A DNA stretch of 64,000 nt from Escherichia coli (GCA_031701365.1 GCA_031701365.1_4118.1); one strand, 5' to 3'. Shown: positions 11,734 to 57,632, numbered from the stretch's first letter. The notes: generated from the letters alone by a model not told the origin. Numbers and translations are program-made.

Positions 11734-11741
11734 GGCGAATT

Positions 11742-44414: not shown

Positions 44415-44419
44415 TGTAC

Positions 44420-44449
44420 ATAGCCCGACATAAGTTCGGGCTATTTTTG
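44420..44449 (+). terminator. rho-independent terminator
   Basis: Perfect 9-bp stem ATAGCCCGA/TCGGGCTAT, loop CATAAGT, then TTTTG. Confidence 0.8.
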
Positions 44450-44460
44450 TAAGGGGATAT

Positions 44461-44736
44461 ATGAATTATAAAGTTCTACAATATACATACAGTGTTTTGT
44501 TTGATTTACATCACAATGGAAGATATCTCAATACAATACGAGAAAACACATTCACTCATACTATCTGGATTAATCACTTAATAATGATACGTGAATATTT
44601 TGTTAATAGTGAGATAATCATTCGTGGTAAAAAACATAAGATAGAACAAGTTAATAGTTTTGGTGGTAAATTAGTACTATCATTTATAGATAGTAATACT
44701 AATGAAAGATATAGTATAGATTTGGTGGACATATGA
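44461..44736 (+). CDS. family-C small protein
   Basis: AAGGGGA SD; MNYKVLQYTYSVLFDL...IIIRGKKHKIEQV. Confidence 0.75.
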   Translation: MNYKVLQYTYSVLFDLHHNGRYLNTIRENTFTHTIWINHLIMIREYFVNSEIIIRGKKHKIEQVNSFGGKLVLSFIDSNTNERYSIDLVDI

Positions 44737-44999
44737 ATTATAAAGATTTCCTACTAACATACAAGATTATTCGAGATTTAGCACACGACAATGATAGCCC
44801 TAGTCTAGAAGACACATGCACTGAAATGATTCATACGATTCGTGGTAAGATTAAAAAAAAATTCAGTACTGTTATTATTGGTGATGACCATGCAGAATTT
44901 TCTGATATAATCATTAGACGTGATGGTAAAGTTGAGGTTCAGTACTACACTGATTTTGGATTTACCAGTATTCCGTTGGAGATATTCCCTTGGGATTAA
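44733..44999 (+). CDS. family-C small protein
   Basis: ATGA overlap; MNYKDFLLTYKIIRDL. Confidence 0.75.
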   Translation: MNYKDFLLTYKIIRDLAHDNDSPSLEDTCTEMIHTIRGKIKKKFSTVIIGDDHAEFSDIIIRRDGKVEVQYYTDFGFTSIPLEIFPWD

Positions 45000-45301
45000 A
45001 TTTAAATGATATACAATTCACTTATAAGATCCTATATGATTTGTATGATGTATACCTTGTTAGTAACAAAATAGGTTCACATAACCCATACAAAGAACAA
45101 CCATTTATTGATTTATATATTGAGTACTTAGATTCAGTAGGTGAATATATAAAAAAGAATTACAGTACTTTTATCGACGGAAATGATATATTCGAGTTCT
45201 CTGGAGTTAAATCATACAATGGGATTATCCATGTTGAATTTCTTGAAATAACCGATAGGGGATTTATCGAGATTAAAGTTGTGAAGTTGGTGAATTTATA
45301 A
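44990..45301 (+). CDS. family-C small protein
   Basis: TTG start (no in-frame ATG); LNLNDIQFTYKILYDLY parallels the next gene. Confidence 0.65.
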   Translation: MGLNLNDIQFTYKILYDLYDVYLVSNKIGSHNPYKEQPFIDLYIEYLDSVGEYIKKNYSTFIDGNDIFEFSGVKSYNGIIHVEFLEITDRGFIEIKVVKLVNL

Positions 45302-45311
45302 GAGGTTACAT

Positions 45312-45623
45312 ATGTTATTAAATGATATACAATTCACATACAAATTTTTGTATATCCAATACGCTACGGTTGATGCTGGAGAATATCTCTACGGTGAAAT
45401 CTATCGTTCGGTATGGATAAAGTTTTTGGATGAATTACATGAATATTACCATGATTTGTGTATAGTTCGTGATAATAAAATATACAAATTCCGCGATATT
45501 GTTAGTCATAGCGGTAAGCTACGATTGGAATTAAGTACTGATAGTGATGTTGATTGGATTGGTGTAAATTTACTGGAGTTGGAGAATGAAAAACAACTTA
45601 AAGGAAATACAAGTATTTTATAA
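45312..45623 (+). CDS. family-C small protein
   Basis: GAGGT SD; MLLNDIQFTYKFLYIQY. Confidence 0.75.
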   Translation: MLLNDIQFTYKFLYIQYATVDAGEYLYGEIYRSVWIKFLDELHEYYHDLCIVRDNKIYKFRDIVSHSGKLRLELSTDSDVDWIGVNLLELENEKQLKGNTSIL

Positions 45624-45870
45624 ATTCTTATACTTGTCATATGTAAAAGATGAGTACTATGAAAGTGTGTATTATTTTTTATGGCAACATTACCGTACTA
45701 TAGTAAGAGATTTATATATAGGAAAATCTATCATATCCAATGGTGAAAGATGTATATGTACTGATGTTGTTAGTTTTAATGGTTCTTTAACACTGTGTTT
45801 CAGATGCGATAATAATAGTGGGTCATTTTCATTAAACGTATATCAGTTAGAAGGAATAAATTTTGAATAA
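45586..45870 (+). CDS. family-C small protein
   Basis: MKNNLKEIQVFYKFLYLSY...LYIGKSIISNG. Confidence 0.75.
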   Translation: MKNNLKEIQVFYKFLYLSYVKDEYYESVYYFLWQHYRTIVRDLYIGKSIISNGERCICTDVVSFNGSLTLCFRCDNNSGSFSLNVYQLEGINFE

Positions 45871-46063
45871 ATGTCCATATTGTAACAGTACTCAATTAGC
45901 TCGTTTCCGTTTAGATTCAGACTGGGCGACGGGTGCTGGTGATTTCTTCCCTATCAATGATGATGCAGAATACACCGAAGAACAACACAAAGATTTTGAT
46001 AAATCATGGCGACCTGACATTGAGTGCATTTATTGCCTTAATTGTGAGCGTGTTCATGACTAA
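45863..46063 (+). CDS. zinc-ribbon mini-protein (66 aa)
   Basis: TTG start 7 nt after AAGGA; CPYC...(44 aa)...CLNC cysteine pairs. Confidence 0.6.
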   Translation: MNKCPYCNSTQLARFRLDSDWATGAGDFFPINDDAEYTEEQHKDFDKSWRPDIECIYCLNCERVHD

Positions 46064-46319
46064 AGCTGAACTAATAGTTCATACATATAAAATGATATCA
46101 AGTACTGAGTTATCATATAGTGCAGATAATCCAGTACTGGATTATTTTGTTGAATTATTGAAAGAGCATTATATTGGTAAATCACTGATTCTTAATAATA
46201 TTAATTTCACGGTAAAGGATGTAGCACCTGGAAAAAACGTACTAATAGTATGTGTTACTTCATCTGATAACCCAGTATACCCAATATCAATAATTTTTGA
46301 GATATTAGGAGATTTATGA
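46056..46319 (+). CDS. family-C small protein
   Basis: Track ORF 45933 trimmed to ATG 46056 (MTKAELIVHTYKM); KEHYIGKSLIL. Confidence 0.7.
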   Translation: MTKAELIVHTYKMISSTELSYSADNPVLDYFVELLKEHYIGKSLILNNINFTVKDVAPGKNVLIVCVTSSDNPVYPISIIFEILGDL

Positions 46320-46606
46320 ATATCATTTTAATGCAGAAAACATATGCTATATTGGTGAAAGATTATTCCATTACTTTCGATTCACAAGAAAGTGCTCTAC
46401 ATAACCTATACAAAAACGTAACACAAGAATACAGAAATATGTTTTCTGACTTAGTAGTAGGAAGGTATTTCAGTACTAGAAAATACCCAAAACTTCAAAT
46501 AGTTGATGTTTCTTTTTATTTCAATGGTCATATTACTATTCATAGTTTAGACCAAGATTCAACAACGTACTTAAACTTTTCATTTGATGAGGTAACATTT
46601 TTATGA
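46316..46606 (+). CDS. family-C small protein
   Basis: ATGA overlap; MNIILMQKTYAILVKDY...DLVVGRYF. Confidence 0.75.
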   Translation: MNIILMQKTYAILVKDYSITFDSQESALHNLYKNVTQEYRNMFSDLVVGRYFSTRKYPKLQIVDVSFYFNGHITIHSLDQDSTTYLNFSFDEVTFL

Positions 46607-46785
46607 GAACAGTATTTTTTATCTGGAGTCTTTTTTCATTGGCAGTACTGACAGTTTCAGGTGCTTATTCATTTTTAACAATGAACACATGGTATGTTAA
46701 TTTACTATTCCCAATTGTTGGTGTTGGTTTAGGATTTACTTTACATAGTGTATGTAAGGATTACAATGACAAATACAACAAATGA
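46603..46785 (+). CDS. small membrane protein (60 aa, two predicted TM helices)
   Basis: ATGA overlap; FFIWSLFSLAVLTVSGAYSF and LLFPIVGVGLGFTLHSV hydrophobic segments. Confidence 0.65.
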   Translation: MRTVFFIWSLFSLAVLTVSGAYSFLTMNTWYVNLLFPIVGVGLGFTLHSVCKDYNDKYNK

Positions 46786-47050
46786 AGTTCTTATTGCTGA
46801 AACAATGAAGATGATTTACTTTATTACTACGGCACAGGATTTGTCTTATCCAGTAAAATCGTTACTTAGGTCAATGTATCTTGATATTGTAAAAGAATAT
46901 TATAAATCTAAACACAGAAGCATTATTAGTGTTTATCGTGATTATGAAAGGATTCGTATTTTATTCTGGAACAAGAATCGAGTACGTTCTGAATGTGATC
47001 TAGTAGATTTTAAATTAGAGAATCTTTATTGCTATAAACAGGGACAATAG
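46766..47050 (+). CDS. family-C-like small protein
   Basis: Track GTG 46748 trimmed to ATG 46766, 7 nt after AAGGA. Confidence 0.65.
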   Translation: MTNTTNEVLIAETMKMIYFITTAQDLSYPVKSLLRSMYLDIVKEYYKSKHRSIISVYRDYERIRILFWNKNRVRSECDLVDFKLENLYCYKQGQ

Positions 47051-47059
47051 TCTAATTCA

Positions 47060-47068
47060 TGATATAAT
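47060..47068 (+). promoter_or_regulatory. extended -10 element TGATATAAT
   Basis: TGa+TATAAT at 47060-47068 in the 58-bp gap before the 47109 gene; weak -35. Confidence 0.45.
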
Positions 47069-47108
47069 AATGGGTAAGGAACAATAATTAACACAAGGAG
47101 TGTGTGAA

Positions 47109-47837
47109 ATGCTTGACCGTATCCGTTTCGCTACAGAGATGGCGAATGAATTAAACATGGCAAATTTCCAAATGTTAACATCAGTAATGGCTGAACATGC
47201 ATGTGCTTATTCTGTAAGTGGTGTGCAGTGTGGTCAGGAGAATATGTTAGCAGATGTTTATAGTGAAGTACAAAGTAAGCAATATAGTGTAAAGACATAT
47301 AAGGATAAGTTTGTTAGTCTTTATATGAACGAAGATATTGCCGAAGACCGCAAATTCACTGATTTTATTATTGAACGCCGAGTATCAGGTGTATCTAATC
47401 CTAATGCATCAAGCGATGAAGTTTTTGCAGAAGTACTGAAAGATATATACGAAAATGAATTAAAAAGTAAGAATCATTACAATGTACGTGAAACTAACAC
47501 AGTGCTCTTGGGATATGATGAAGACGAAGAATACTATTATTTTCGTATGACTGAAGTTCCTTTTGAATACAAATCTCCATATACAACTACAGTGAAAGAA
47601 TTTACTGAAAAAAGTAAAAACTTTATGAAGCATGAAGGAAATCGTTGTAGTATAAATGGTTATGACGAAAATGGCATTCACATTTATGAATGGGTTCACC
47701 CAAATTGTCAGACATACACTCGTTGCTTGAAAAAACGTTATAATTTAGAAGAGCATGAATCATTCTATTTTAAAGTTAAGAAGCAAGGTTATACTCGCCC
47801 CGCCGATTCTGAATTGATGGGTATGATATATTTCTAA
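47109..47837 (+). CDS. hypothetical protein (242 aa)
   Basis: Track GTG 47100 overlaps the SD; trimmed to ATG 47109, 8 nt after AAGGAG. Confidence 0.75.
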   Translation: MLDRIRFATEMANELNMANFQMLTSVMAEHACAYSVSGVQCGQENMLADVYSEVQSKQYSVKTYKDKFVSLYMNEDIAEDRKFTDFIIERRVSGVSNPNASSDEVFAEVLKDIYENELKSKNHYNVRETNTVLLGYDEDEEYYYFRMTEVPFEYKSPYTTTVKEFTEKSKNFMKHEGNRCSINGYDENGIHIYEWVHPNCQTYTRCLKKRYNLEEHESFYFKVKKQGYTRPADSELMGMIYF

Positions 47838-47847
47838 GGAAACTGCT

Positions 47848-48129
47848 ATGGATTTTTATCTACACACATGGACATACGAACAATATATTACATTATATCT
47901 TGAAATTATTAACACAGAACCTAGGTGTGGTTGTTGGTTCGCAGATATCATAAAAGAGTATGCGGACGAATTTGAGTTCGTGTATCTTGGTACTGATATA
48001 TTTGTAAAAAGTGTAGGTAAAACCGGACGAATCACTGATATAGATTACGACACTGTTAGTGTGAATTTCTATGTTGATTTTCCTGATGCTGGCGTTGATG
48101 GTGTATATTGTCTTTATGAAATAATTTAA
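47848..48129 (+). CDS. family-C-like small protein
   Basis: AAGGAAA SD; 93 aa with a beta-rich C-half. Confidence 0.65.
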   Translation: MDFYLHTWTYEQYITLYLEIINTEPRCGCWFADIIKEYADEFEFVYLGTDIFVKSVGKTGRITDIDYDTVSVNFYVDFPDAGVDGVYCLYEII

Positions 48130-48136
48130 ATTTTTA

Positions 48137-48160
48137 GGCCAGCGTTTGCTGGTCTTTTTT
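48137..48160 (+). terminator. rho-independent terminator
   Basis: Stem GGCCAGC/GCTGGTC (one G.U), loop GTTT, then TTTTTT. Confidence 0.75.
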
Positions 48161-48173
48161 CGCAGGTACAAAG

Positions 48174-48476
48174 ATGTTCAGTATAGATTTAATTAACAGT
48201 ACTATCAAAATGTTGGCAGATTTGGTGAGACAATCCAATGGAACTTTATATTCTGCAATGTATAAAATGTTTGACCGATATATCAAGGATTGTAACATAT
48301 CATTATATGGACTTGCTGTTGATATAGACGATTACTATGGAATTAATACTTCATATAAAACAGGAATTTTAATTGGTATTAATATAAAGATGGGGTATTT
48401 CCCTTATTACTGTATAGGATTACCAGATAATACTTTGGTAGAATATCCAGCCAGTACTATAAAAATAAGAGGATAA
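48174..48476 (+). CDS. hypothetical protein (100 aa)
   Basis: ORF after the terminator; weak SD (AGG). Confidence 0.6.
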   Translation: MFSIDLINSTIKMLADLVRQSNGTLYSAMYKMFDRYIKDCNISLYGLAVDIDDYYGINTSYKTGILIGINIKMGYFPYYCIGLPDNTLVEYPASTIKIRG

Positions 48477-48483
48477 AACTAAA

Positions 48484-49062
48484 ATGAATGTATTAGAATT
48501 AAGTACTAAGCTGATTACTATGCGTAACGAGTGGTACGATTGGTTTTATAATGGTACTGATATGGATTTTTCAAAATATCCATTTATGGAATCAGGATGT
48601 GATGCAAGATACCGCTGGTTGAGCAAAGATTGTTCTGGTTTACATATTCTAGTTGACGATAGTGGTCAGGGAATTATAAAAGATTTACTTCAAGTTGAAC
48701 AACTCGTCCATGATAATTGGTGTGATAACGATCCATACCTTGGAAATATGATTTATGTAAGTGAAGATGATTGCATATTCGTTATCCAGCGTCATGGTAA
48801 TTCTATGTTTTATGTAGCAGACAGCAGTACTCCAGAAGGTGCAGCAGCCGATGGTCTTATGCCTAAGATTGATATATTGGAATTTGGATTACCTGAGCAC
48901 TTCCAGATTAGTACTTTATACGATATTCCACCACTTGAGTTCTTTGAAGAATTTAAATTGTACTACAATGATCTTCAAAAATTGAGTACTGAGAGTCGCC
49001 TTGAAATAACCGTCAAGTACATGGACGGAACGAAATTAACCGATACGGGGATAGAATTTTGA
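48484..49062 (+). CDS. family-B protein (long form, outlier copy)
   Basis: Motif LPEHFQISTLYD. Confidence 0.75.
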   Translation: MNVLELSTKLITMRNEWYDWFYNGTDMDFSKYPFMESGCDARYRWLSKDCSGLHILVDDSGQGIIKDLLQVEQLVHDNWCDNDPYLGNMIYVSEDDCIFVIQRHGNSMFYVADSSTPEGAAADGLMPKIDILEFGLPEHFQISTLYDIPPLEFFEEFKLYYNDLQKLSTESRLEITVKYMDGTKLTDTGIEF

Positions 49063-49748
49063 TTAAAGATTTAGATAGAATTTTATATGTACTAAGGGGT
49101 GTAATTACATTACATCCACAAATCAATCGAATTGAAAGTACATTTCAGTTGGAGTCAAGAGAAACTCCATATTCACATATATCAAATGTAGTTGGTTCAC
49201 TCAGTACTGAAGACTCGTCTTACGATATTTGTGTATGTGAAGTTCAACCAAGTTCGGATCTTGGATTTGCTATTTTTGATAAAGAACAAAATCTCATTAG
49301 TATGTTTCAGTGCAATAATCCTTTTTGGAAAACATGCCTGTATCCAGAGTGGGCTATGCTTGATCCAACCAAGAGTACCATTAAAGTTTATGACTCTAAA
49401 AATGATGAAGTCGCTATTGATTTGGATGAGTCAATGTCAGAGGAAGAACACTTTCAGCTAATGATGATGCGTGCTATGCCTGAGTACAATGCAATGATTA
49501 ACACTGTGCAATACATTAAGGATACTATGCCATCATTGCGTACACATGAGTTTTGTCATCCTGTATTGTATGAACATTTGGATTTAGATTTCAGTACTAT
49601 TAAATTCAAAGATAGTATTATAAAATATATTCAAGAAAATGTTAAATTTAATTTCATTAGTACTATGAACAATAATCCAAAAACGAATTTTAGGCATCAG
49701 TACAATGAATCTTTTTCTAATGGTCGTGATACCAGTTGGTGGAAATAA
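49059..49748 (+). CDS. family-B protein (long form, outlier copy)
   Basis: TTG start overlapping the upstream TGA (no nearby ATG); motif SEEEHFQLMMMRA. Confidence 0.65.
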   Translation: MIKDLDRILYVLRGVITLHPQINRIESTFQLESRETPYSHISNVVGSLSTEDSSYDICVCEVQPSSDLGFAIFDKEQNLISMFQCNNPFWKTCLYPEWAMLDPTKSTIKVYDSKNDEVAIDLDESMSEEEHFQLMMMRAMPEYNAMINTVQYIKDTMPSLRTHEFCHPVLYEHLDLDFSTIKFKDSIIKYIQENVKFNFISTMNNNPKTNFRHQYNESFSNGRDTSWWK

Positions 49749-49749
49749 C

Positions 49750-50013
49750 ATGAATATCCAAGATAGATTACAATTACTGTACACACTTGAACAGGCTGCT
49801 TTTGAACTTGTTCGAAAAATATCAGATGAACTACCTAAAGGAACTAAAGTTCGTGTACGTGAGATGAATTATTTTTCTGGAGTAATTGAAGAACAAGTAC
49901 TAACAGTGAATAAAGTAACATACTATGAATCTGAGTTGTCTATTCAGTGTGAATCGGATGATGGATTAATATCATATTATGGAACTGATGTAGATATAGA
50001 GGTAATAAAATGA
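49750..50013 (+). CDS. family-C small protein
   Basis: Track ORF 49705 trimmed to ATG 49750 after GGTGGAAA; SDELPKGTKVRVRE. Confidence 0.7.
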   Translation: MNIQDRLQLLYTLEQAAFELVRKISDELPKGTKVRVREMNYFSGVIEEQVLTVNKVTYYESELSIQCESDDGLISYYGTDVDIEVIK

Positions 50014-51152
50014 CCCTTTTACAAATATATGAAGATTTAATGCACTTATGTAATACAAACGATGCATTCTTTTATGTGGATCATAAAAGTCCTGCTGGTG
50101 GCACGTATCGTGTATTCAGTTATCGCCTAGCATCATACACTGATTTCATGCAACCAAATGCGTTGGAAACCCGTGGCTCTATGTGGGAAATTGATGAAGA
50201 AGGTGACATGATACGTTGTGCAGCACGTACAATGAAAAAGTTCTTCAATGCTTACGAGAATCCTGCTACAATGTTCCCTGCTAACACCACATGCGATGAC
50301 ATTGCGGTCGTGATGCCTAAGTTGGATGGTTCGATTATCAGTACTTATCGTGATAATGATGGTGAGATTCGTTGTAAATCACATACTGCATTGTATTCTG
50401 ACCATGCGATTAACAGTACTCGACTTATTAACGAGAACCAGAATTTGTATCAGTACATCGACGAAGCGGAACGTTTAGGTTACACAGTTAATATGGAGTA
50501 TACAAGCCCAGAGTACCGAATTGTATTACCATATCAGGTAGAACAACTGTTTGTACTGAACGTTCGACATCGTGTGAGTGGTGAGTTGCTATGTGGTAAA
50601 GCACTACGTGATAAGTTTCCATGTCTTGCACAGTACAGTACTAATATGACCGGAAAAGATATTCATCACACTTTTCCGGTACGAAATACCTTCCGTGAAA
50701 GCGTGGAGGAAGTTCATAAAATGCTTGATATTGAGGGTTTTGTGTGCATCCTAAATAATGGGACAATGTGTAAAATAAAAACTGACTGGTACAGTTCATT
50801 ACATCTTACAAAAGATAGTATTATTATTGATTCTCATTTATATGAAGCCGTATTAAATGGTTCAAGTGATGATTTAAAACAATTGTTCAGTACTGATGAA
50901 TATGCTATGCAAAAGATATTAAGAATGGAACATTTGGTATTTTCGTGCTATAATGCATTACAAGATGAAGTAGAAAGCTTCGTCAAGGAACACAAGCACT
51001 TGGAGCGAAAGGAATTCGCAATGAAGGTTCAGGAGTGTTTAACTAATGAACTGAATCGTCAGGGCTTGGCCTTTGCAATGTATAACAATAAGAAAGTTGA
51101 TTACAAAGAGACTCTTATAAAATACATGAAAATTGTACTAAAGGATTTTTAG
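50010..51152 (+). CDS. rnlA: RNA ligase 1 (T4 RnlA-like)
   Basis: 380 aa. The N-terminus parallels T4 Rnl1 (GGTYRVFSY...ALETRG...KFFN). Adenylylation motif I is PKLDGS; EGFV and KIKTDWY motifs follow. Confidence 0.9.
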   Translation: MTLLQIYEDLMHLCNTNDAFFYVDHKSPAGGTYRVFSYRLASYTDFMQPNALETRGSMWEIDEEGDMIRCAARTMKKFFNAYENPATMFPANTTCDDIAVVMPKLDGSIISTYRDNDGEIRCKSHTALYSDHAINSTRLINENQNLYQYIDEAERLGYTVNMEYTSPEYRIVLPYQVEQLFVLNVRHRVSGELLCGKALRDKFPCLAQYSTNMTGKDIHHTFPVRNTFRESVEEVHKMLDIEGFVCILNNGTMCKIKTDWYSSLHLTKDSIIIDSHLYEAVLNGSSDDLKQLFSTDEYAMQKILRMEHLVFSCYNALQDEVESFVKEHKHLERKEFAMKVQECLTNELNRQGLAFAMYNNKKVDYKETLIKYMKIVLKDF

Positions 51153-51182
51153 TACTATCTAGCCTAAGCACAAGGAGAAGTG

Positions 51183-51437: not shown

Positions 51438-51446
51438 GGAGTTCAT

Positions 51447-51677
51447 ATGAAAGTTGAAGTTCAGCATAGTATTGTTCAGGATATGTCAGTAGTTAAATTT
51501 CTTTCTCTGAAAGATTACTTCAGATGTATCAAGTTCCTAGAAGAATCTCAATTACAGTGGACCCCATTAAAGTACAGTTCATCCAATGATACAGCTAGTA
51601 TTCGTTGTGATGAATCTGTACTTGTGAAAATCTCCAAACGATTTGGAGTAGGAAAAGTTAATGAGCACAGTAAGTGA
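51447..51677 (+). CDS. hypothetical protein (76 aa)
   Basis: AAGGAG SD. Confidence 0.7.
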   Translation: MKVEVQHSIVQDMSVVKFLSLKDYFRCIKFLEESQLQWTPLKYSSSNDTASIRCDESVLVKISKRFGVGKVNEHSK

Positions 51678-51915
51678 CCTAAAATACTACAACAAAACTG
51701 CGGATACGTTTATTACTCATTTATATGAAGAATTTAGTCGTATCCGTAAGGAATATACAGGTAAATGTATTTTATATAGTTCTTATCATAGTGGTGGAAT
51801 TGAAAGTGCTTACATTACTAAAGTGAAGTTTTCTGATGACTATCAATTACTCTTTGAATTAGATGATTGTTTCGTTATTGAAGCTTGTTTGATAGTGGAT
51901 GTTCTAGATAATTGA
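51661..51915 (+). CDS. family-C small protein
   Basis: RKEYTGKCILYS. Confidence 0.7.
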   Translation: MSTVSDLKYYNKTADTFITHLYEEFSRIRKEYTGKCILYSSYHSGGIESAYITKVKFSDDYQLLFELDDCFVIEACLIVDVLDN

Positions 51916-51921
51916 GGACAT

Positions 51922-52236
51922 ATGAATAAAGAACTTGCATTTGAGAGGATCGAAAAGTTAAAGTACATTGAAAAGGAACTAATAGAATCTGTCGAATCAA
52001 TGGTCGAAGATTACGTTTTCGATTTTAAGAAAACATTGATTGGATGTAAAGTTAAATGCTGGGATCATACAATCAGAGAATGGTTCAGTACTATAATTCT
52101 TGATGTTAAAGTATCGCGTACTGCTATTGGTAATTTAGTAAATGGTGAATGCTTTGTATACACTGAATACAATAACGGAACAAGAAACCTTTCAAGAGGA
52201 TGGCACAAACTCGAAGATGTAGAATTCATTGAGTAA
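51922..52236 (+). CDS. family-C small protein
   Basis: GAGGA SD; KKTLIGCKVKCW. Confidence 0.7.
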   Translation: MNKELAFERIEKLKYIEKELIESVESMVEDYVFDFKKTLIGCKVKCWDHTIREWFSTIILDVKVSRTAIGNLVNGECFVYTEYNNGTRNLSRGWHKLEDVEFIE

Positions 52237-52248
52237 CAAGGAGTAATA

Positions 52249-53181
52249 ATGCCAACTATTACACTAACAGTTGGATTACCTGGGTGTGGAAAAACCACAT
52301 GGGCAGTTCAAGAAATTAAAAATGCCAAATCGAAGACTATCAACATTAACCGTGATGACATTCGAGAATCAATGGCAGGGTCACATGATGCATACAAATT
52401 CAACGACGCTAATGAGCAGTACGTAACTAAAATGCAGTTCAGTGCAGCAAATTCAGCAGCAGAGAATGGTTGGAACATCATTGTGTCCGATACGAACCTT
52501 AAACAACATTTCCGTGATGAATGGAAACGTTGGGCTAAAGATAATGAATACGACTACAAAGAAAAGAACTTCTACGAAGATTTTGTACCGAATGAAGATC
52601 GTGGTGCAGATGTTCATGTTTTCTTTAAGATTAAAGAGTTCGTAAAACTTTGTAAGAAACGTAACCTCATGCGTGAGCGTTCAGTACAAGATAATATCAT
52701 TGACACTATGGCAGATACGTACTATTATAGTAAGGCCATGCACATTGGTTACTATGGTAATTCACGAGAAGCTGCTATCATCGTTGATATCGATGGAACT
52801 CTTGCTCATAAATGGGGGCGTAACCCGTTCGATGAAAGTACTGTTCTTCAGGATACACCTGATGAAGAAGTTATTTTGTCTATTATCGCTGAAGCAGTTT
52901 TTCATAAACGCAAGATTATCGTCATGAGTGGGCGTACTGAAGGGTGTCGTGCTGATACCGAACAGTGGCTTAAGAATTGGGGTGTTCCTTACGATGCATT
53001 GTTTATGCGAGATATCGATGATAAACGTCCTGATGATGTTGTAAAATTCGACCTGTACATGAAAAATGTGGTTGATCATTACGATGTTAAAAAGGTATAT
53101 GATGACCGAGCACAAGTCGTATTCATGTGGCGTAAGCTACTTGGCTTGAAAGTTTTTCAAGTTGCAGAAGGAAATTTCTAA
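52249..53181 (+). CDS. pseT: polynucleotide 5'-kinase/3'-phosphatase (T4 Pnk-like)
   Basis: P-loop GLPGCGKTT, INRDD, SDTN, then HAD phosphatase DIDGTL...SGR...DDR...WQVAxGxF-type C-terminus. Collinear with T4 PseT. Confidence 0.92.
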   Translation: MPTITLTVGLPGCGKTTWAVQEIKNAKSKTININRDDIRESMAGSHDAYKFNDANEQYVTKMQFSAANSAAENGWNIIVSDTNLKQHFRDEWKRWAKDNEYDYKEKNFYEDFVPNEDRGADVHVFFKIKEFVKLCKKRNLMRERSVQDNIIDTMADTYYYSKAMHIGYYGNSREAAIIVDIDGTLAHKWGRNPFDESTVLQDTPDEEVILSIIAEAVFHKRKIIVMSGRTEGCRADTEQWLKNWGVPYDALFMRDIDDKRPDDVVKFDLYMKNVVDHYDVKKVYDDRAQVVFMWRKLLGLKVFQVAEGNF

Positions 53182-53185
53182 TACA

Positions 53186-53218
53186 AAAGGGATCATATGT
53201 TGGTCCCTTTTTCTTTTA
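53186..53218 (+). terminator. rho-independent terminator
   Basis: Stem AAAGGGATCA/TGGTCCCTTT (one G.U), loop TATGT, then TTCTTTT. Confidence 0.75.
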
Positions 53219-53230
53219 AGGTATATTATA

Positions 53231-53407
53231 ATGAATGTAAAAACACAGATGTTGTTACAAAAAGAATACTTAGAAAATATAGAAATGTTCTATAGATTGT
53301 CTTTATACGAAAATAAAGATAAAAAATATAACTTTTCTAAACAACTAAACACAAGTACTAATGATTATCTATTTTCATCAATGTTTTATGTGAGAGGTTT
53401 ATTATAA
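53231..53407 (+). CDS. hypothetical mini-protein (58 aa)
   Basis: Track TTG 53162 starts inside pseT and crosses the terminator; trimmed to ATG 53231. Confidence 0.45.
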   Translation: MNVKTQMLLQKEYLENIEMFYRLSLYENKDKKYNFSKQLNTSTNDYLFSSMFYVRGLL

Positions 53408-53667
53408 TGGATAAATTTCACACAGATATAACACAGATAGGTAATCTTATCAATAGTCTAATTACTGATTTAGAAGAAAAGTATTTAGGTCGAAATGTAT
53501 ACGTAGAAATGTATGAAACATATGGTGTTATTGATATGATTTATTACAGTGCATTGAAGTGTGAAATACGTTTAACAGTATGTTTGTTTGAAAAAAATAC
53601 ATTCAACAGAAGTACTGCAATTCGCCAAGTTGGAGTTGATGATATAGAATTATACGAGGAACAATGA
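53407..53667 (+). CDS. family-C small protein
   Basis: TAATG overlap; EEKYLGRNVYVE. Confidence 0.75.
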   Translation: MDKFHTDITQIGNLINSLITDLEEKYLGRNVYVEMYETYGVIDMIYYSALKCEIRLTVCLFEKNTFNRSTAIRQVGVDDIELYEEQ

Positions 53668-53918
53668 TGTTTGAGCAGGACTTAGAGATATTCAAAAGTC
53701 ATATTGATTACTTGACTATATTAGAAAATGATTTAACTACAAAGTACAAAGGTATTCGTGTTCTGTGCTGGTATGATGATTGGGATTATAAACGTGAACT
53801 CACTATTGATCGAATTTATTTCAGTGACGGTGTACTAAATGTACATGGTGTAAATGATTTTGGTCATTCATATACATATTCTAATAATGCTAAATTTAAA
53901 AGGATCTACAATGAATGA
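53664..53918 (+). CDS. family-C small protein
   Basis: ATGA overlap; TTKYKGIRVLCW. Confidence 0.75.
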   Translation: MMFEQDLEIFKSHIDYLTILENDLTTKYKGIRVLCWYDDWDYKRELTIDRIYFSDGVLNVHGVNDFGHSYTYSNNAKFKRIYNE

Positions 53919-54213
53919 ATATTATCATAATTTATTCGATTACATAAAACTAATAGATGATCTTTCTTTTGAATTTCTCAGTACTGAAAAAGTTCTTGAA
54001 CCTCTCTATTATGATTGTATTAGTTCACTATCTTTAGATGAAAAAGAGATATTATCAAATAATTTACCGTCAACCGTCTGTGTAATCAATGGTTCCAAGG
54101 CTGTGGTGTCTGAGGTTAATTTTCATAAATCACTTAATACAATTGTTTACAAGTTCGATAACACTTGGTTTAATCATGTAACTAGTAATATTAAATCTGT
54201 GAGATTTTTATGA
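53911..54213 (+). CDS. family-C-like small protein
   Basis: Track ORF 53854 trimmed to ATG 53911 after AAGGA. Confidence 0.65.
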   Translation: MNEYYHNLFDYIKLIDDLSFEFLSTEKVLEPLYYDCISSLSLDEKEILSNNLPSTVCVINGSKAVVSEVNFHKSLNTIVYKFDNTWFNHVTSNIKSVRFL

Positions 54214-54506
54214 ATATAAAAAAATTATTTGAACAAGTAAATTTATTGTACTGGTGTTCAGACGGTTCAGATAAGGAATATAGTGAAGTTTATTTAGAAC
54301 TGTTTAGAACTGAAATTCATTATATTCGAAGATACTTAATTGATAACAAAACTAAAGTACAAGTAAGATACCATAATGGTACTTTAAAGGATGGTATAAT
54401 TATTGGATTGATAGTTGCACGATGGTCTAGTAATATTAAAGTTGCAGTAAGATTAATGTCTGATGATGGTGTCTACACAATAGAAGCTAGTGAGATTATA
54501 TATTAA
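54210..54506 (+). CDS. family-C small protein
   Basis: ATGA overlap; IDNKTKVQVRYHNG. Confidence 0.7.
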   Translation: MNIKKLFEQVNLLYWCSDGSDKEYSEVYLELFRTEIHYIRRYLIDNKTKVQVRYHNGTLKDGIIIGLIVARWSSNIKVAVRLMSDDGVYTIEASEIIY

Positions 54507-54812
54507 ATGGATATACAAACATTCAATAAGCTAAAGTACTATGATAATGGTTTTGCATTAATAATTAACGAACTTGATGGGATACCATACGAATATCATA
54601 ATCAATTAATGAAGATAGTAAAATGTATATGTGAAGAATTAAAAAGTATGTTTAAAAATGAATATGTTTATGATTTAGGTAATAGTAGCAAAAAACTATA
54701 CATAAAGAAATTCTGGGGAACGCATTGTGGTTTAATGGTCGATTTAGGTTTAAGTTTAGACGATAATTCTGAATCATGTTCATTATATATAGATGAAATG
54801 CGAATATCATGA
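54507..54812 (+). CDS. family-C-like small protein
   Basis: Starts immediately after the upstream TAA. Confidence 0.65.
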   Translation: MDIQTFNKLKYYDNGFALIINELDGIPYEYHNQLMKIVKCICEELKSMFKNEYVYDLGNSSKKLYIKKFWGTHCGLMVDLGLSLDDNSESCSLYIDEMRIS

Positions 54813-54827
54813 GACGTATCAGAATTC

Positions 54828-54853
54828 GGTGATATAATTTGATTACATCACCA
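54828..54853 (+). promoter_or_regulatory. extended -10 element (GGTGATATAAT) inside a small hairpin
   Basis: TGa+TATAAT at 54830-54838; arms GGTGAT/ATCACC flank it. Confidence 0.45.
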
Positions 54854-54869
54854 ATGTGGAGAAGTTGAA

Positions 54870-55196
54870 GTGAATGGTTCGTTTTTAACAATTTTAGAAA
54901 AGACATCCGAGATGCTTTCTAGTTCGTTAATGCACATTTTCAGTACTAATAATTTATACAATACCCAGGTGTTAGATTCAATTAGTAATAACTATGTGGT
55001 AAGTATATCTGATGAAATATGTCCATTTAATGCGTATACGAATTATAGTGTAGAAGAGTTTCATATATCCGAGATTCGATGTGGTTTTGGTGCTTGGTTA
55101 GTTCTAAATGAACGTTCAGGGACGTCTTTATACATCGAAGAAATTGATAAATTTATATACAAAGGAGTAGAATATGTTAACCCCAATCATTCTTAG
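54870..55196 (+). CDS. hypothetical protein (108 aa)
   Basis: GTG start 8 nt after GGAG. Confidence 0.5.
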   Translation: MNGSFLTILEKTSEMLSSSLMHIFSTNNLYNTQVLDSISNNYVVSISDEICPFNAYTNYSVEEFHISEIRCGFGAWLVLNERSGTSLYIEEIDKFIYKGVEYVNPNHS

Positions 55197-55803
55197 CAGT
55201 GCATATGTAATCGGTATTATTATTTCTGGTATGCTTGCATATAACTATAACAGAAGTGTTATAGGTTATGTAGTACTTGGTACAGTACTAAGTCCAGTGA
55301 TTGCTATTGGTCTTCTTGTTATGCTAGGTGAGAAAAATACAAGCTTCTTTATTACTAAAGAACTTGATAAAATCACCCCAGCACCAGAAACAGTTATTCC
55401 AGAAGTTAAAGAAGAAGTTAAAGAAGTTGAAGTTCAAATGCAAGTTAAAGTGTATAATACACTTGAAGAAACTGACCCTAAAGTTGTAGTGAATGTAGTT
55501 CCAGTCGTTGAAGAGGTGAAACCAAAAGCTCCTAAAGTACAGAAAAATACTAAAACTGCAAAGAAAGCTCGTTACACTAAAGGTAAGAACAAAGGTAAAT
55601 CTAAGGATGAACCACAACTAGGTGTTCATGACCATACTGCACAAATTGCAACGGCAGCGACCGCAGCAGCAATCGTAACATCACCAATCTACAACAATGA
55701 TGATTACAGTGATTATAGCCGTCACAGCAGTTCTTCCTCTGATTCTTGTTCCTATGATAGCTCTAGTTCTGATTCAAGTTCATCTTCTGGAAGTTGTGAT
55801 TAA
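55174..55803 (+). CDS. membrane protein with K/E/V-repeat linker and Ser-rich tail (209 aa)
   Basis: Two N-terminal hydrophobic helices, EVKEEVKEVEVQMQVKV repeats, basic KKARYTKGKNKGKSK, and C-terminus SSSSSDSCSYDSSSSDSSSSSGSCD. Confidence 0.7.
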   Translation: MLTPIILSSAYVIGIIISGMLAYNYNRSVIGYVVLGTVLSPVIAIGLLVMLGEKNTSFFITKELDKITPAPETVIPEVKEEVKEVEVQMQVKVYNTLEETDPKVVVNVVPVVEEVKPKAPKVQKNTKTAKKARYTKGKNKGKSKDEPQLGVHDHTAQIATAATAAAIVTSPIYNNDDYSDYSRHSSSSSDSCSYDSSSSDSSSSSGSCD

Positions 55804-56132
55804 TGTCAATGAAACCACTAATTCAACATAATATTTTTTATAGGTCATTATTCAAAATTCAAGATGATTTTTATCAGACGTTGAGTAATGATCTTATAGG
55901 TAAAACTGTACGATATTCGGAACAATACATCAAACGTATGACAAGTCAGTATATTGACCCTGAATACGAATACGACATTGAACACATTAATCCCAATACT
56001 AGAATGAAAATCATTGAGATATTTAAGAATGGGAGAACTATAGGTGCTGAAATTGAGTACTTGAATTGTGATTGTTACATAGATACAGAGTTGAGTTTGG
56101 ATTATCTTGTTTTAGTGGATGATGAGGAATAA
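55803..56132 (+). CDS. family-C small protein
   Basis: TAATG overlap; SNDLIGKTVRYS. Confidence 0.7.
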   Translation: MSMKPLIQHNIFYRSLFKIQDDFYQTLSNDLIGKTVRYSEQYIKRMTSQYIDPEYEYDIEHINPNTRMKIIEIFKNGRTIGAEIEYLNCDCYIDTELSLDYLVLVDDEE

Positions 56133-56134
56133 TT

Positions 56135-56350
56135 ATGATAACATTTTTCGCAATATATGGATTTGTAGCATTTGTTACATTTATAACCAACTTTCTAGTA
56201 CTTAATTGGGGTTGTTTTAAAGATGAAATCATGATTATCATGAATCTCCAAACAGCAGCACTGATGGCTATTATTTGGCCTGTAACGTTAGTATATATTT
56301 TTATTTCACTTACCCAAGATATTATTAACAAATATAAGAGAAAGAAATAA
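56135..56350 (+). CDS. small membrane protein (71 aa)
   Basis: Two hydrophobic segments (FFAIYGFVAFVTFITNFLVL; AALMAIIWPVTLVYIFISL). Confidence 0.65.
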   Translation: MITFFAIYGFVAFVTFITNFLVLNWGCFKDEIMIIMNLQTAALMAIIWPVTLVYIFISLTQDIINKYKRKK

Positions 56351-56601
56351 TGTTCAACAACGACTTATCACATTTGCGATATCTTATGTCTTTGGCTGAT
56401 GATTTTATAAATGATCTGAAGCCAAAATATATTGGTCAAGAAGTACGATTAATAAACTCCAGAGGGTATGGAAAATATATTATTACTGATATGTATATTA
56501 GTGGTGGTGAATGGCGTTTTAAAATTAATACTTATCTTAAAGATGGTTCTTTTGCTGGAACACAAGTTACTAAACACACTAATATTATATGGTTGGAGTA
56601 A
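56350..56601 (+). CDS. family-C small protein
   Basis: TAATG overlap; KPKYIGQEVRLI. Confidence 0.75.
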   Translation: MFNNDLSHLRYLMSLADDFINDLKPKYIGQEVRLINSRGYGKYIITDMYISGGEWRFKINTYLKDGSFAGTQVTKHTNIIWLE

Positions 56602-56603
56602 TA

Positions 56604-57347
56604 ATGAAACATTTCTTAGAAGTAACCGTACCTGATGATAAAGATTTATACATTGTAGGTGATTTGCATGGTAATGGTAAACTATGGGATGCTACAGTGA
56701 AAGAATTTGGTATTACACACAATGATTATGTTTTCAGTGTAGGTGATATTATCGACCGTGGAGAACAAAATTCAAAGCTCCTTTTTGAATTTTTGTTCGG
56801 AGAAAATCGTTACATGATTGCGGGTAATCATGAGATGATGTGCGTTGATTCGGAAACACTTCGAGATTGGTATCATTGTTGGATAAGTAATGGTGGTGAT
56901 AAATTCCTTGATGAAGTTGGAGGAACAGGCATTCAATTCTTTCGTCAGTACTTAAAAGATCTCCCTATGATTATCCAAATCAATCACCGAGGCTTGAAGA
57001 TTGGGTTAGTTCATGCTGGAGTTCCGTTGGAATATACAACATGGGAACGATTTGTTAATGGGACAAAATCACTTAGTGCTGATATAATTGATAAGTGCTT
57101 GTGGGATAGGAAAACATTCGATTATTGTAGAACGAATAATACCTATTATGCACCTAAGTTAGATGGAGTGCATTGTGTCTTTAGTGGACATACAGCAGTT
57201 ACTGATCCACTCATTTATGGTAATCGCATTTGGATTGATAGTCAATTCTTGACGGGTGACTTAACTCTCGCTACTCCACAAAGTGGTGGGATGAGATACT
57301 TACGTAAAGAAAAAGATGAGTACTCATTCAATCGTTTCAAAAGGTAA
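56604..57347 (+). CDS. Ser/Thr protein phosphatase (lambda PPase / PrpA-like metallophosphatase)
   Basis: Track ORF 56589 trimmed to ATG 56604 after GGAG; GDLHGN, GDIIDRG, GNHE, and HAG/GHT motifs in canonical order. Confidence 0.85.
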   Translation: MKHFLEVTVPDDKDLYIVGDLHGNGKLWDATVKEFGITHNDYVFSVGDIIDRGEQNSKLLFEFLFGENRYMIAGNHEMMCVDSETLRDWYHCWISNGGDKFLDEVGGTGIQFFRQYLKDLPMIIQINHRGLKIGLVHAGVPLEYTTWERFVNGTKSLSADIIDKCLWDRKTFDYCRTNNTYYAPKLDGVHCVFSGHTAVTDPLIYGNRIWIDSQFLTGDLTLATPQSGGMRYLRKEKDEYSFNRFKR

Positions 57348-57352
57348 TAATT

Positions 57353-57622
57353 ATGCATGATGAAGTTAAAAAATATTTGAATGATAGATATATTATGAAA
57401 AAATCTATTAATTCTATCCTAAAAGATCATGCTAATCAAATACGTGAGATTCTATCAAATAAACTTATTGGTTGTTCAGTTGAGTTCAATTACAAAAAGA
57501 ATGTAGTGAAGATTGGAGTTATTAAACGTGTAGTTGCTGTTTATGACCAAAATGTATATGTTGAAATTGAATATGATGGTAAATTATCACAATTAAGTAC
57601 TGAAGATTTAACATTTTTATAA
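57353..57622 (+). CDS. family-C small protein
   Basis: SNKLIGCSVEFN. Confidence 0.7.
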   Translation: MHDEVKKYLNDRYIMKKSINSILKDHANQIREILSNKLIGCSVEFNYKKNVVKIGVIKRVVAVYDQNVYVEIEYDGKLSQLSTEDLTFL

Positions 57623-57632
57623 GGAAATAGAA

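What the first reader, a model, noticed from the sequence alone, without database searches (positions are those of the whole stretch)
44461..57622. Third paralog family (family C, ~85-105 aa, about 20 copies), clustered at 44.4-47 kb and scattered among the enzyme genes
Eight copies run head-to-tail at 44461..47050. They are interrupted only by a Zn-ribbon gene and a 2-TM mini-gene.

Further copies flank or separate rnlA, pseT, the Ser/Thr phosphatase and others: 47848, 49750, 51661, 51922, 53407, 53664, 53911, 54210, 54507, 55803, 56350 and 57353. One more lies at 21801.

Shared features are an N-terminal helix and a central [EK]-[KE]-Y-x-G-x-x-V or L-I-G-x-x-V element. A beta-rich C-terminal half resembling small SH3/Tudor-like barrels follows (for example KPKYIGQEVRLI, TTKYKGIRVLCW, EEKYLGRNVYVE, SNKLIGCSVEFN).

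Membership of the most divergent copies is uncertain.
Basis: partly seen in the sequence, partly recalled or inferred. Interest (0 to 1): 0.55.

Follow-up and report, generated by a model that had tools for sequence, protein, structure and literature searches.

The report
Jumbo-phage family of small barrel proteins
A giant E. coli phage (121Q type) carries about 23 fast-diverging copies of one small gene whose product is a helix packed on an SH3/Sm-like mini-barrel; the family is real, is found only in this phage genus, and has no known function.

Summary
The window is from an Escherichia phage 121Q-like jumbo phage (Asteriusvirus).

Plain pairwise searches recover only two tight sub-families:
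- C1: the tandem array at 44461-47050.
- C2: 53407, 53664, 56350 and 21801.

Four further tests tie C1, C2 and most scattered copies into one divergent superfamily:
- Leave-one-out profile HMMs.
- Reciprocal "half-family" HMMs.
- Shuffling controls.
- Two AlphaFold2 models built from alignments that share no sequences.

Both models show an N-terminal helix (single, or a hairpin) followed by five strands of a small beta-barrel. The sequence-only alignment places these elements in the same register.

Four copies remain marginal: 46766, 47848, 53911 and 54507.

All copies are under purifying selection (dN/dS 0.02-0.6), and their orthologues were not among the virion proteins detected by mass spectrometry in phage phAPEC6. 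They are mostly acidic. No polar residue is conserved beyond one Asp/Glu position in strand 2. None has a relative outside Asteriusvirus among 1.84 billion representative proteins.

The most likely role is non-enzymatic binding of host or phage factors during infection (inferred, untested). This is a previously undescribed family with a common fold, of modest interest.

The parts
44461..44736 (+). C1 array member 1 (91 aa)
   Evidence: phmmer E 6.5e-7 to 2e-6 to 45586. hhalign probability 98% to 45312. Leave-one-out HMM E 6.5e-10.
44733..44999 (+). C1 array member 2 (88 aa)
   Evidence: phmmer E 1e-5 to 2.4e-5 to 44990. hhalign probability 95% to 44990. Leave-one-out E 2.1e-8.
44990..45301 (+). 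C1 array member 3 (103 aa)
   Evidence: phmmer E 7.7e-8 to 45312. Same PHROG (phrog_21004) as 45312. Leave-one-out E 2.7e-6.
45312..45623 (+). C1 array member 4 (103 aa); representative used for the first AlphaFold2 model
   Evidence: Model pLDDT 82.5, pTM 0.69: two helices plus five strands. Leave-one-out E 1.4e-10.
45586..45870 (+). C1 array member 5 (94 aa). The true start is most likely ATG 45586, not the TTG 45634 annotated in phage 121Q (gp426).
   Evidence: The longer form restores the shared N-terminal 'IQxxYKFLY' helix. phmmer E 8.4e-8 to 45312. Leave-one-out E 6.6e-11.
46056..46319 (+). C1 array member 6 (87 aa), more divergent
   Evidence: C1 HMM E 2.6e-3 to 6e-3. hhalign versus the deep C1 profile E 6.7e-4. 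Leave-one-out E 5.2e-5. 0 of 300 shuffles reach the real score.
46316..46606 (+). C1 array member 7 (96 aa). The start is most likely ATG 46316, not the annotated GTG 46355 (gp429).
   Evidence: C1 HMM E 4e-4. Recovered by the C1 profile in the 5.8-billion-protein search (P0019, P0022, P0025, P0026).
46766..47050 (+). C1 array member 8 (94 aa; the alternative GTG start at 46748 gives 100 aa). Marginal member.
   Evidence: C1 HMM E 0.016-0.03. hhalign versus deep C1 E 0.012 over 81 columns. Leave-one-out E 0.13. 13 of 300 shuffles reach the real score. Its JNE01/Turkey5 orthologues hit the non-C1 HMM at E 1.5e-3 and 6e-3.
47848..48129 (+). Scattered copy (93 aa), marginal member
   Evidence: C2 HMM E 3.4e-3 in one round. 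Leave-one-out E 0.08. 5 of 300 shuffles reach the real score. Recovered as P0055 by the pooled profile, which contained 47848 itself, in the 1.84-billion-protein search.
48174..48476 (+).
   Evidence: Pooled-family HMM that did not contain it: E 1.3e-3 and 2.3e-4 in the six-frame scan.
49750..50013 (+). Scattered copy (87 aa) immediately upstream of rnlA
   Evidence: Leave-one-out E 0.023, orthologue 9e-5. 2 of 300 shuffles reach the real score. hhalign about 6e-3 to both C1 and C2 deep profiles.
51661..51915 (+). Scattered copy (84 aa). Absent from phages vB_Ec-M-J and phAPEC6.
   Evidence: Leave-one-out E 2e-4. 0 of 300 shuffles reach the real score. Absence seen.
51922..52236 (+). Scattered copy (104 aa) immediately upstream of the polynucleotide kinase gene
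   Evidence: C2 HMM E 1.5e-4 to 1.2e-3 for the gene and five orthologues. hhalign versus deep C2 E 9.9e-5, probability 58%. Leave-one-out E 1e-4.
53407..53667 (+). C2 member (86 aa)
   Evidence: phmmer E 6e-4 to 21801. HMM iteration joins it to 56350 and 53664. hhalign probability 64% to 56350.
53664..53918 (+). C2 member (84 aa)
   Evidence: C2 HMM E 4.3e-4. Leave-one-out E 1.5e-3, orthologue 3.1e-7.
53911..54213 (+). Scattered copy (100 aa), marginal member
   Evidence: Leave-one-out E 0.29, but its vB_Ec-M-J orthologue scores 7.3e-4. 24 of 300 shuffles reach the real score. The same orthologue hits the C1-only HMM at E 3.4e-4.
54210..54506 (+). Scattered copy (98 aa)
   Evidence: Leave-one-out E 2.9e-4. 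0 of 300 shuffles reach the real score. An orthologue hits the C1-only HMM at E 1e-3.
54507..54812 (+). Scattered copy (101 aa), marginal member
   Evidence: Leave-one-out E 0.15, orthologue 0.02. 14 of 300 shuffles reach the real score.
55803..56132 (+). Scattered copy (109 aa) with a long insertion in the strand 1-strand 2 loop
   Evidence: Leave-one-out E 2.3e-3, orthologue 9e-5. 0 of 300 shuffles reach the real score. Insertion visible in the pooled alignment.
56350..56601 (+). C2 member (83 aa); representative used for the second AlphaFold2 model
   Evidence: Model pLDDT 85.4, pTM 0.71: one long helix plus five strands. C2 HMM E 3.1e-4. hhalign versus deep C1 E 9.8e-4.
57353..57622 (+). 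Scattered copy (89 aa) that bridges the two sub-families
   Evidence: Leave-one-out E 3.5e-7. 0 of 300 shuffles reach the real score. One orthologue hits the C1 HMM (2.5e-4) and another hits the C2 HMM (6.2e-4). Its 3' end shares 83% DNA identity over 23 nt with the 3' end of 46316.
21801..22109 (+). Outlying C2 member (102 aa) with an extra N-terminal helix
   Evidence: phmmer E 6e-4 to 53407. Member of the converged C2 HMM. Orthologue cluster P0035 found by the C2 profile.
10995..11384 (+). It carries 'ELSEKYKGTEFSV'.
   Evidence: Pooled HMM that did not contain it: E 3.5e-5 and 6.6e-5 in the six-frame scan. It is the non-candidate that intrudes in both half-family HMM tests.

Best explanation
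Family C is one lineage-specific multigene family of an Asteriusvirus (121Q-like) jumbo phage. It has about 23 genes in this window, and they arose by repeated tandem and dispersed duplication.

Each gene encodes an 83-129 aa soluble protein, and the orthologues were not among the virion proteins detected by mass spectrometry in phage phAPEC6. The protein is built from one long N-terminal helix, or a helical hairpin, packed against a five-stranded small beta-barrel of the SH3/Tudor/Sm-like class.

Conservation is confined to core hydrophobic positions, two turn glycines and one Asp/Glu position in strand 2. The surface and the strand 1-strand 2 loop vary freely, and that loop carries insertions of up to roughly 25 residues.

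I therefore infer that the proteins are not enzymes. They most likely act as stoichiometric binders of host or phage macromolecules during infection (host takeover or counter-defence), with the paralogs having diverged in what they bind.

Shown here: the family, its predicted fold, purifying selection, restriction to one genus, and absence of the phAPEC6 orthologues from a virion proteome.
Inferred only: non-enzymatic binding, the loop as specificity determinant, and a role in host takeover or counter-defence.
For: Family:
- Pairwise and HMM links within C1 and within C2.
- Leave-one-out HMMs, shuffling controls and reciprocal half-family HMMs.
- Candidates score higher than control genes against the deep profiles (Mann-Whitney p 0.001).
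- A six-frame scan gives no hits in non-coding frames.

Fold:
- Two confident AlphaFold2 models, built from alignments that share no sequences, have the same order of elements.
- Their strands fall in the same columns of the sequence-only alignment.
- BFVD entry A0A097EY12 matches the C1 model (E 2.3e-4, TM 0.59/0.76) and the C2 model (E 0.019, TM 0.65/0.69).

Real genes:
- dN/dS is 0.02-0.6 for every member against three other phages.
- The ORFs are kept across 36 phage genomes.

Non-structural:
- None of phAPEC6 gp359c-gp390c is in that phage's virion mass-spectrometry table (PMC7247149).

Not enzymes:
- Apart from Gly (65% and 45% of members) and Asp (53%), the columns conserved in most members are hydrophobic.
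- No Pfam family reaches its cut-off.

Fast turnover:
- Orthologues in phages JNE01 and Turkey5 are 22-57% identical, against 51-100% for neighbouring non-family genes.
- Some positions hold very divergent alleles, or lack the gene, in otherwise close phages.

Context:
- The genes are co-oriented and tightly packed among rnlA, the polynucleotide kinase gene, a Ser/Thr phosphatase, a hydrolase annotated as peptidyl-tRNA hydrolase in related phages, and DNA ligase.
- Terminator-like hairpins lie at 44420, 48136 and 53185.
Against: - No binding partner, expression timing or phenotype is known, so the functional part is pure inference from fold and conservation pattern.
- Direct profile-profile comparison of C1 with C2 is weak (hhalign probability 0.4% with shallow profiles and 10.7% with deep ones). 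The PHROG remote-homology clustering keeps almost every gene in its own family.
- Gene-wide dN/dS is below 1 everywhere, so an arms-race signature is not demonstrated.
- Only two members were modelled. The fold of the other 21 is assumed from alignment.
- Four listed members are statistically marginal.
Confidence: 0.55

Rival explanations
1. Family C is not one family. It is two small true families (the tandem array C1 and the KY-x-G group C2) plus unrelated small alpha/beta proteins that merely share composition and a common helix-then-strands layout.
For: - Pairwise searches link only 5 + 2 genes.
- hhalign C1 versus C2 gives P 0.15 with shallow profiles and 0.0029 with deep ones, probability 10.7%.
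- PHROGs puts nearly every gene in a separate family.
- Four members have leave-one-out E values of 0.08-0.29.
Against: - Half-family HMMs find the other half ahead of 136 non-candidates in both directions.
- Six singletons beat all 300 of their own shuffles.
- Unrelated helix-plus-strand paralogs from RaK2-like phages score only background, hhalign E 0.06-0.8.
- Two AlphaFold2 models from alignments that share no sequences have the same order of elements, and the sequence-only alignment puts them in register.
Confidence: 0.12
2. The proteins are Sm/Hfq-like RNA binders. An N-terminal helix followed by a five-stranded bent sheet is the Sm topology. They would form rings and assist the neighbouring RNA-repair enzymes (RNA ligase 1, polynucleotide kinase/phosphatase) or act on host RNAs.
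For: - Predicted topology is helix plus five strands.
- The G-x-x-V...G...D spacing around strands 1-2 recalls the Sm1 motif (my reading; the motif is recalled from knowledge of the family).
- Copies directly flank rnlA and the kinase gene.
Against: - No LSM/Hfq Pfam match for any of 51 members, even at E<=10.
- No conserved Arg-Gly (Sm2-like) or other conserved basic residue.
- 19 of 23 members are acidic or neutral (pI below 7; median pI 5.0).
- Oligomeric state was not testable here.
Confidence: 0.1
3. The proteins dock on the host transcription machinery (RNA polymerase or its factors) through the barrel. CarD and TRCF do this with Tudor-like domains and NusG-type proteins with KOW domains. 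Their role would be to redirect host RNA polymerase.
For: - The C2 model matches T4-type 'transcriptional regulator'/MotB proteins in BFVD over 57-65 columns. The MotB N-terminal domain is described as KOW-like in PMC7827196.
Against: - KOW (Pfam) gives one hit at E 0.1, below its cut-off.
- No sequence motif of CarD or NusG is present.
Confidence: 0.15
4. The ORFs are decaying or non-functional filler, or gene-calling artefacts, in a plastic region of a very large genome.
For: - No annotated function.
- No relatives outside one genus among 1.84 billion representative proteins.
- Some copies are missing or replaced in close relatives.
Against: - dN/dS is well below 1 for all members.
- The ORFs are intact across 36 genomes.
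- The AlphaFold2 folds are confident.
- Tight operon-like packing with overlapping stops and starts.
Confidence: 0.03

Closest known systems
Small beta-barrel (SH3/Tudor-like) domains that bind RNA polymerase, e.g. the N-terminal domain of CarD (PDB 4l5g)
Bacteriophage T4 MotB and related T4-type 'transcriptional regulator' proteins (N-terminal KOW-like domain)
   Same: Small early-phage proteins whose barrel domain superposes on the C2 model over 57-65 columns, TM about 0.5 normalised to the query. MotB is a non-essential host-directed early protein (PMC7827196).
   Different: MotB carries an additional C-terminal OB-fold, binds DNA, and is a single-copy gene (PMC7827196). Family C has no OB domain, is mostly acidic, and is expanded to about 23 copies. 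There is no sequence relationship.
Sm/LSm/Hfq fold
   Same: The same order of elements: N-terminal helix, then five strands of a bent small barrel.
   Different: No LSM/Hfq profile match. No conserved RNA-binding residues. Ring formation is unknown.
Uncharacterised small proteins of Klebsiella phage RaK2 (UniProt H6X4H5, H6X4J9, H6X4K0, H6X4L0, H6X4R2)
   Same: - They come from the sister group of jumbo phages.
- They are similar in size (86-99 aa).
- Their predicted structures match the two models. H6X4R2 gives TM 0.58/0.66 against the C1 model and H6X4H5 gives TM 0.62/0.56 against the C2 model.
- There are several copies per genome.
   Different: There is no detectable sequence similarity. 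The pooled HMM's best E is 0.076 on 229 ORFs from RaK2-like loci. Their position in the RaK2 genome was not determined.
Multigene families of small accessory proteins in large DNA viruses, and the small non-essential early genes between enzyme genes in T4 (from general knowledge)
   Same: Tandem and dispersed paralogs, fast sequence turnover, presence/absence differences between close strains, and location among host-takeover and nucleic-acid-repair genes.
   Different: This particular family has not been described in the papers I could search. No host target or phenotype is known.

Membership tests
One paralogous gene family (common descent of the listed ORFs) | Statistically significant sequence similarity among members, above what non-members and shuffled sequences give | tested here: met
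   - Within C1: phmmer E 1e-4 to 8e-8 and hhalign probability up to 98%.
- Within C2: E 3e-4 to 6e-4.
- Across groups: leave-one-out E<=0.023 for 16 of 20 candidates; reciprocal half-family HMMs with best E 1.9e-6 and 3.4e-4; shuffles.
- Not met individually by 46766, 47848, 53911 and 54507.
One paralogous gene family (common descent of the listed ORFs) | The same fold in representatives of different sub-groups | tested here: met
   The two AlphaFold2 models have the same element order, and the sequence alignment puts them in register. A shared BFVD match (A0A097EY12) has TM 0.59-0.76 to both. Only 2 of 23 members were modelled.
SH3/Tudor-like small beta-barrel fold class | Five antiparallel strands with a short helical turn before the last strand | tested here: met
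   DSSP strings of both models. This rests on prediction, not a solved structure. In several C1 members the chain ends soon after strand 4, so strand 5 may be missing.
SH3/Tudor-like small beta-barrel fold class | Significant structural match to solved members | tested here: inconclusive
Sm/LSm/Hfq (Pfam LSM and relatives) | Match to the family profile / Sm1 and Sm2 sequence motifs | tested here: not met
   No LSM or Hfq family among the Pfam matches of 51 members at E<=10, or of the 20 window genes at E<=1. No conserved Arg-Gly column.
Sm/LSm/Hfq (Pfam LSM and relatives) | Ring-shaped oligomer that binds RNA | not testable with these tools
   Needs oligomer modelling or experiments.
KOW motif (PF00467) | Profile match above the gathering score (22.3 bits) | tested here: not met
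   Single hit, 47848, at 12.9 bits and E 0.1.
Any existing PHROG or Pfam family with a known function | Profile match | tested here: not met
   Nineteen of the 20 genes matched a PHROG of unknown function (E 2e-4 to 2e-75). All but two (45312, 45586) matched a PHROG of their own, and 51661 matched none. No Pfam family is above its cut-off. There are no PDB sequence relatives.

The most novel reading that the evidence does not exclude
The roughly 23 paralogs could be a phage-encoded repertoire of Sm-like subunits. They would assemble into mixed rings, as eukaryotic Sm proteins do, and act on RNA together with the interspersed RNA-repair enzymes (RNA ligase 1, polynucleotide kinase/phosphatase).

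A less extreme version is that the helix-plus-barrel scaffold is a diversifying binder library, with each copy neutralising a different host defence or host factor.
Probability: 0.05. Interest if true: 0.8.

Novelty: new member of a known kind. Interest (0 to 1): 0.35.

Why it matters
About 23 genes that databases treat as unrelated "hypothetical proteins" collapse into one family with one fold. Most of them sit in singleton PHROGs. That is roughly 4% of the gene content of a ~600-gene phage, and it gives a rational handle on part of the "dark matter" of jumbo phages.

The findings point to proteins that bind other molecules and turn over fast. Such proteins are the class from which anti-defence and host-takeover factors have repeatedly come.

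Two practical consequences:
- Two start codons in the reference annotation should be corrected.
- One structural or interaction study could inform the whole family.

If the family turns out merely to be another set of accessory small proteins, the result is ordinary.

Tried and rejected
1. HMM iteration at a loose inclusion threshold (E 0.01) ran from the C1 array into the ~70-aa family at 4164-11023. That family's sequences lack a strand-rich half and carry an LGTNYQE motif. With a strict threshold the link disappears, so I treated it as profile drift.
2. RaK2-like jumbo phages (loci L003-L008) keep the enzymes in the same order. They have no sequence homologues of the small genes.
3. Those phages have their own 97-102 aa paralogs upstream of rnlA. 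These score only background against every family C profile, so they are not the same family by sequence.
4. A BLAST link between 53664 and the conserved 128-aa gene at 39305 holds for the 53664 orthologue group (hhalign E 9.5e-4). It does not hold for the C2 profile (E 0.38). Left unresolved.
5. Pfam, PHROGs and PDB sequence searches gave no informative match.
6. Profile searches of 5.8 billion and 1.84 billion proteins returned only orthologues or paralogs of the window's own genes.
I rebuilt the alignments from window and database proteins.
8. I tried to place the RaK2 structural matches on the RaK2 genome. The first 50 kb did not contain the region, so I stopped.
9. A literature search on paralogs in Asteriusvirus found no description of this family.

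Full report
**Source and context**

Window 44000-58000 is 99.1% identical to Escherichia phage 121Q (NC_025447, positions 195793-209787). It is 84-98% identical to 34 other jumbo coliphage and Salmonella-phage records of the genus Asteriusvirus. All genes in the region lie on the + strand and are tightly packed. In the 121Q record every small gene discussed here is annotated "hypothetical protein". Three terminator-like hairpins lie at 44420-44444, 48136-48155 and 53185-53211. They divide the region into units that each mix small genes with enzymes.

An all-against-all blastp and phmmer comparison of 157 + strand ORFs gives significant pairwise links only in two places. One is among 44461, 44733, 44990, 45312 and 45586. 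The other is between 21801 and 53407. Strict HMM iteration extends these to two sub-families:
- C1: the five array genes above plus 46316, with 46056 and 46766 as weak members.
- C2: 53407, 56350, 53664 and 21801.

I collected orthologues from five other Asteriusvirus genomes (loci L009-L013) and ran four tests.

1. Leave-one-out. For each candidate I built an HMM from all other candidates and their orthologues. I then scored the left-out gene against 136 non-candidate genes of the window.
   - Examples: 57353 at 3.5e-7, 51922 at 1e-4, 51661 at 2e-4, 54210 at 2.9e-4, 55803 at 2.3e-3.
   - Every candidate ranks within the top 0-7 of the 136.
2. Shuffling. Out of 300 shuffles of each sequence, the number reaching the real score was:
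   - 0 for 46056, 51661, 51922, 54210, 55803 and 57353;
   - 2 for 49750 and 5 for 47848;
   - 13 for 46766, 14 for 54507 and 24 for 53911.
3. Reciprocal halves.
   - An HMM built only from the scattered members finds array members (1.9e-6, 1.8e-4, 2.2e-4 and so on).
   - An HMM built only from the array finds orthologues of 53911, 54210, 57353, 53664, 53407 and 56350 (3.4e-4 to 5e-3).
   - In both directions these score ahead of almost all non-candidates.
4. Profile-profile comparison.
   - Against deep C1 and C2 profiles, the 11 unassigned candidates score higher than 11 control small genes from the same region (Mann-Whitney p 0.001).
   - An unrelated set of helix-plus-strand paralogs from RaK2-like phages scores only background.

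The direct C1-versus-C2 hhalign result is weak: P 0.15 with shallow profiles and 0.0029 with deep ones, probability 10.7%. The case for one family therefore rests on the combination of tests, not on that single number.

A six-frame scan finds nothing in non-coding frames.

**Fold**

I built two AlphaFold2 models from alignments that share no sequences.

| Model | pLDDT | pTM | Elements |
|---|---|---|---|
| 45312 (C1) | 82.5 | 0.69 | H3-21, H28-45, E50-53, E56-66, E69-75, E82-86, H87-91, E100-102 |
| 56350 (C2 plus singletons, no C1 rows) | 85.4 | 0.71 | H2-27, E31-34, E42-51, E54-62, E68-75, short helix, E79-81 |

The pooled alignment was made from sequence alone. It places strand 1 (31-34 / 50-53), strand 2 (42-51 / 57-66), the turn glycine (53 / 68), strand 3 and strand 4 of the two models in the same columns.

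Structural comparisons:
- Foldseek against BFVD. A 78-aa 121Q protein, A0A097EY12, matches the C1 model (E 2.3e-4, TM 0.59/0.76) and the C2 model (E 0.019, TM 0.65/0.69). By its length I take it to be gp426, the truncated annotation of 45586.
- The C2 model also matches many 56-65 aa phage barrels and T4-type MotB-like proteins. The N-terminal domain of MotB is described as KOW/SH3-like (PMC7827196).
- Several small RaK2 proteins match at TM 0.5-0.66 without any sequence similarity.

**Properties that bear on function**

- Selection. dN/dS against three other phages is 0.02-0.6 for every member, so these are real genes under purifying selection. The array genes are more relaxed than conserved neighbours.
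- Rate of change. Orthologues in the most divergent Asteriusvirus genomes are 22-57% identical, against 51-100% for neighbouring non-family genes.
- Turnover.
  - 51661 is absent from vB_Ec-M-J and phAPEC6.
  - 46056, 55803, 51922 and 44461 have very divergent alleles in otherwise close phages.
- Virion status. None of the phAPEC6 orthologues (gp359c-gp390c) appears in that phage's virion mass-spectrometry table (PMC7247149).
- Charge. Members are mostly acidic, with median pI 5.0.
- Conserved positions. Apart from two glycines and one aspartate, the columns conserved in most members are hydrophobic.
- Variable positions. The largest length variation lies between strands 1 and 2.
- Database matches.
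  - No Pfam family reaches its cut-off.
  - Nearly every gene sits in its own PHROG of unknown function.
  - There are no PDB sequence relatives.
- Distribution.
  - Profile searches of 5.8 billion proteins found 27 clusters (C1 profile), 8 (C2) and 20 (pooled at E<=10).
  - A pooled-profile search of 1.84 billion representatives found 28 hits.
  - The hits are orthologues or paralogs of the window's own genes.
  - All source names given are Asteriusvirus phages or E. coli records.

**Interpretation**

The evidence supports a lineage-restricted, fast-evolving multigene family of small soluble proteins with a helix plus small-beta-barrel fold. These proteins were not detected in virions.

The conservation pattern is a fixed core with a free surface and a length-variable loop. 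It argues against catalysis and for binding. The acidic charge argues against classical nucleic-acid binding. I therefore favour non-enzymatic binders of host or phage factors used during infection. This functional step is inferred, not shown.

The rivals are:
- two or three unrelated families;
- Sm-like RNA binders that cooperate with the adjacent RNA-repair enzymes;
- RNA-polymerase-docking modulators of the CarD/KOW type;
- non-functional filler.

Each is listed in the Rival explanations section of this report with evidence for and against.

**Novelty and verdict**

I found no description of this family in the papers on 121Q-like and related jumbo phages. The fold class, and the phenomenon of expanded small-protein families in large phages, are both well known. 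I therefore rate it as a new member of a known kind, with modest interest. Its practical value is that it merges about 23 "hypothetical" genes into one testable family and corrects two start codons (45586 and 46316).

Noticed in passing
window 4164-11023 and 23066-23453: A separate family of about 28 tandem ~70-aa proteins with an LGTNYQE-like motif and no strand-rich half. A loosely thresholded HMM drifted into it from the C1 array through similar N-terminal helices.
   Followed up: partly
window 9597-31838: A third large family of about 33 proteins, 103-224 aa, linked by blastp.
   Followed up: no
window 45586-45870 and 46316-46606: The 121Q reference annotation starts these two genes at TTG 45634 and GTG 46355. 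The upstream ATGs restore the N-terminal helix shared with the paralogs. The longer forms are also the ones annotated in phage ph0011.
   Followed up: yes
window 46603-46785 and 56135-56350: Two mini-proteins with two hydrophobic segments each sit next to family C genes. They are weakly alike (hhalign E 0.0027).
   Followed up: no
window 45863-46063 and 57633-57860: A CxxC...CxxC zinc-ribbon-like protein inside the array weakly resembles the DnaJ-like CxxC protein downstream of 57353 (hhalign E 0.0037).
   Followed up: no
window 39305-39691 versus 53664-53918: The barrel region of 53664 resembles the N-terminus of a 128-aa protein that is conserved in RaK2-like phages. BLASTP gives E 6e-5 for the single comparison, and phmmer gives 1.3e-5 to L003 442-840. 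The whole C2 profile does not see it (hhalign E 0.38).
   Followed up: partly
window 45002-45027 / 45318-45343; 44455-44508 / 44727-44780; 46585-46607 / 57601-57623: Short stretches of DNA identity survive at the 5' ends of adjacent array genes (92% over 26 nt, and 70% over 54 nt including the ribosome-binding site). Another survives at the 3' ends of 46316 and 57353 (83% over 23 nt). The rest of these genes has diverged.
   Followed up: no
L013 (vB_Ec-M-J) 11391-11916; L014 (phAPEC6) 7442-7967: In these close relatives the 51661 gene is missing. The 51922 position holds a variant that is only 35% identical (measured for vB_Ec-M-J), so there is gene-level turnover within the genus.
   Followed up: partly
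L008 9038-9937, L006 9336-9922, L003 9332-9924: RaK2-like phages carry two or three tandem 97-102 aa paralogs of their own directly upstream of rnlA. This is the position that 49750 occupies here. They are unrelated to family C by profile comparison.
   Followed up: yes
window 16390-16734: A 114-aa ORF gives a marginal hit to the pooled family HMM (E 0.017-0.021). It may be a further very distant member, or chance.
   Followed up: no
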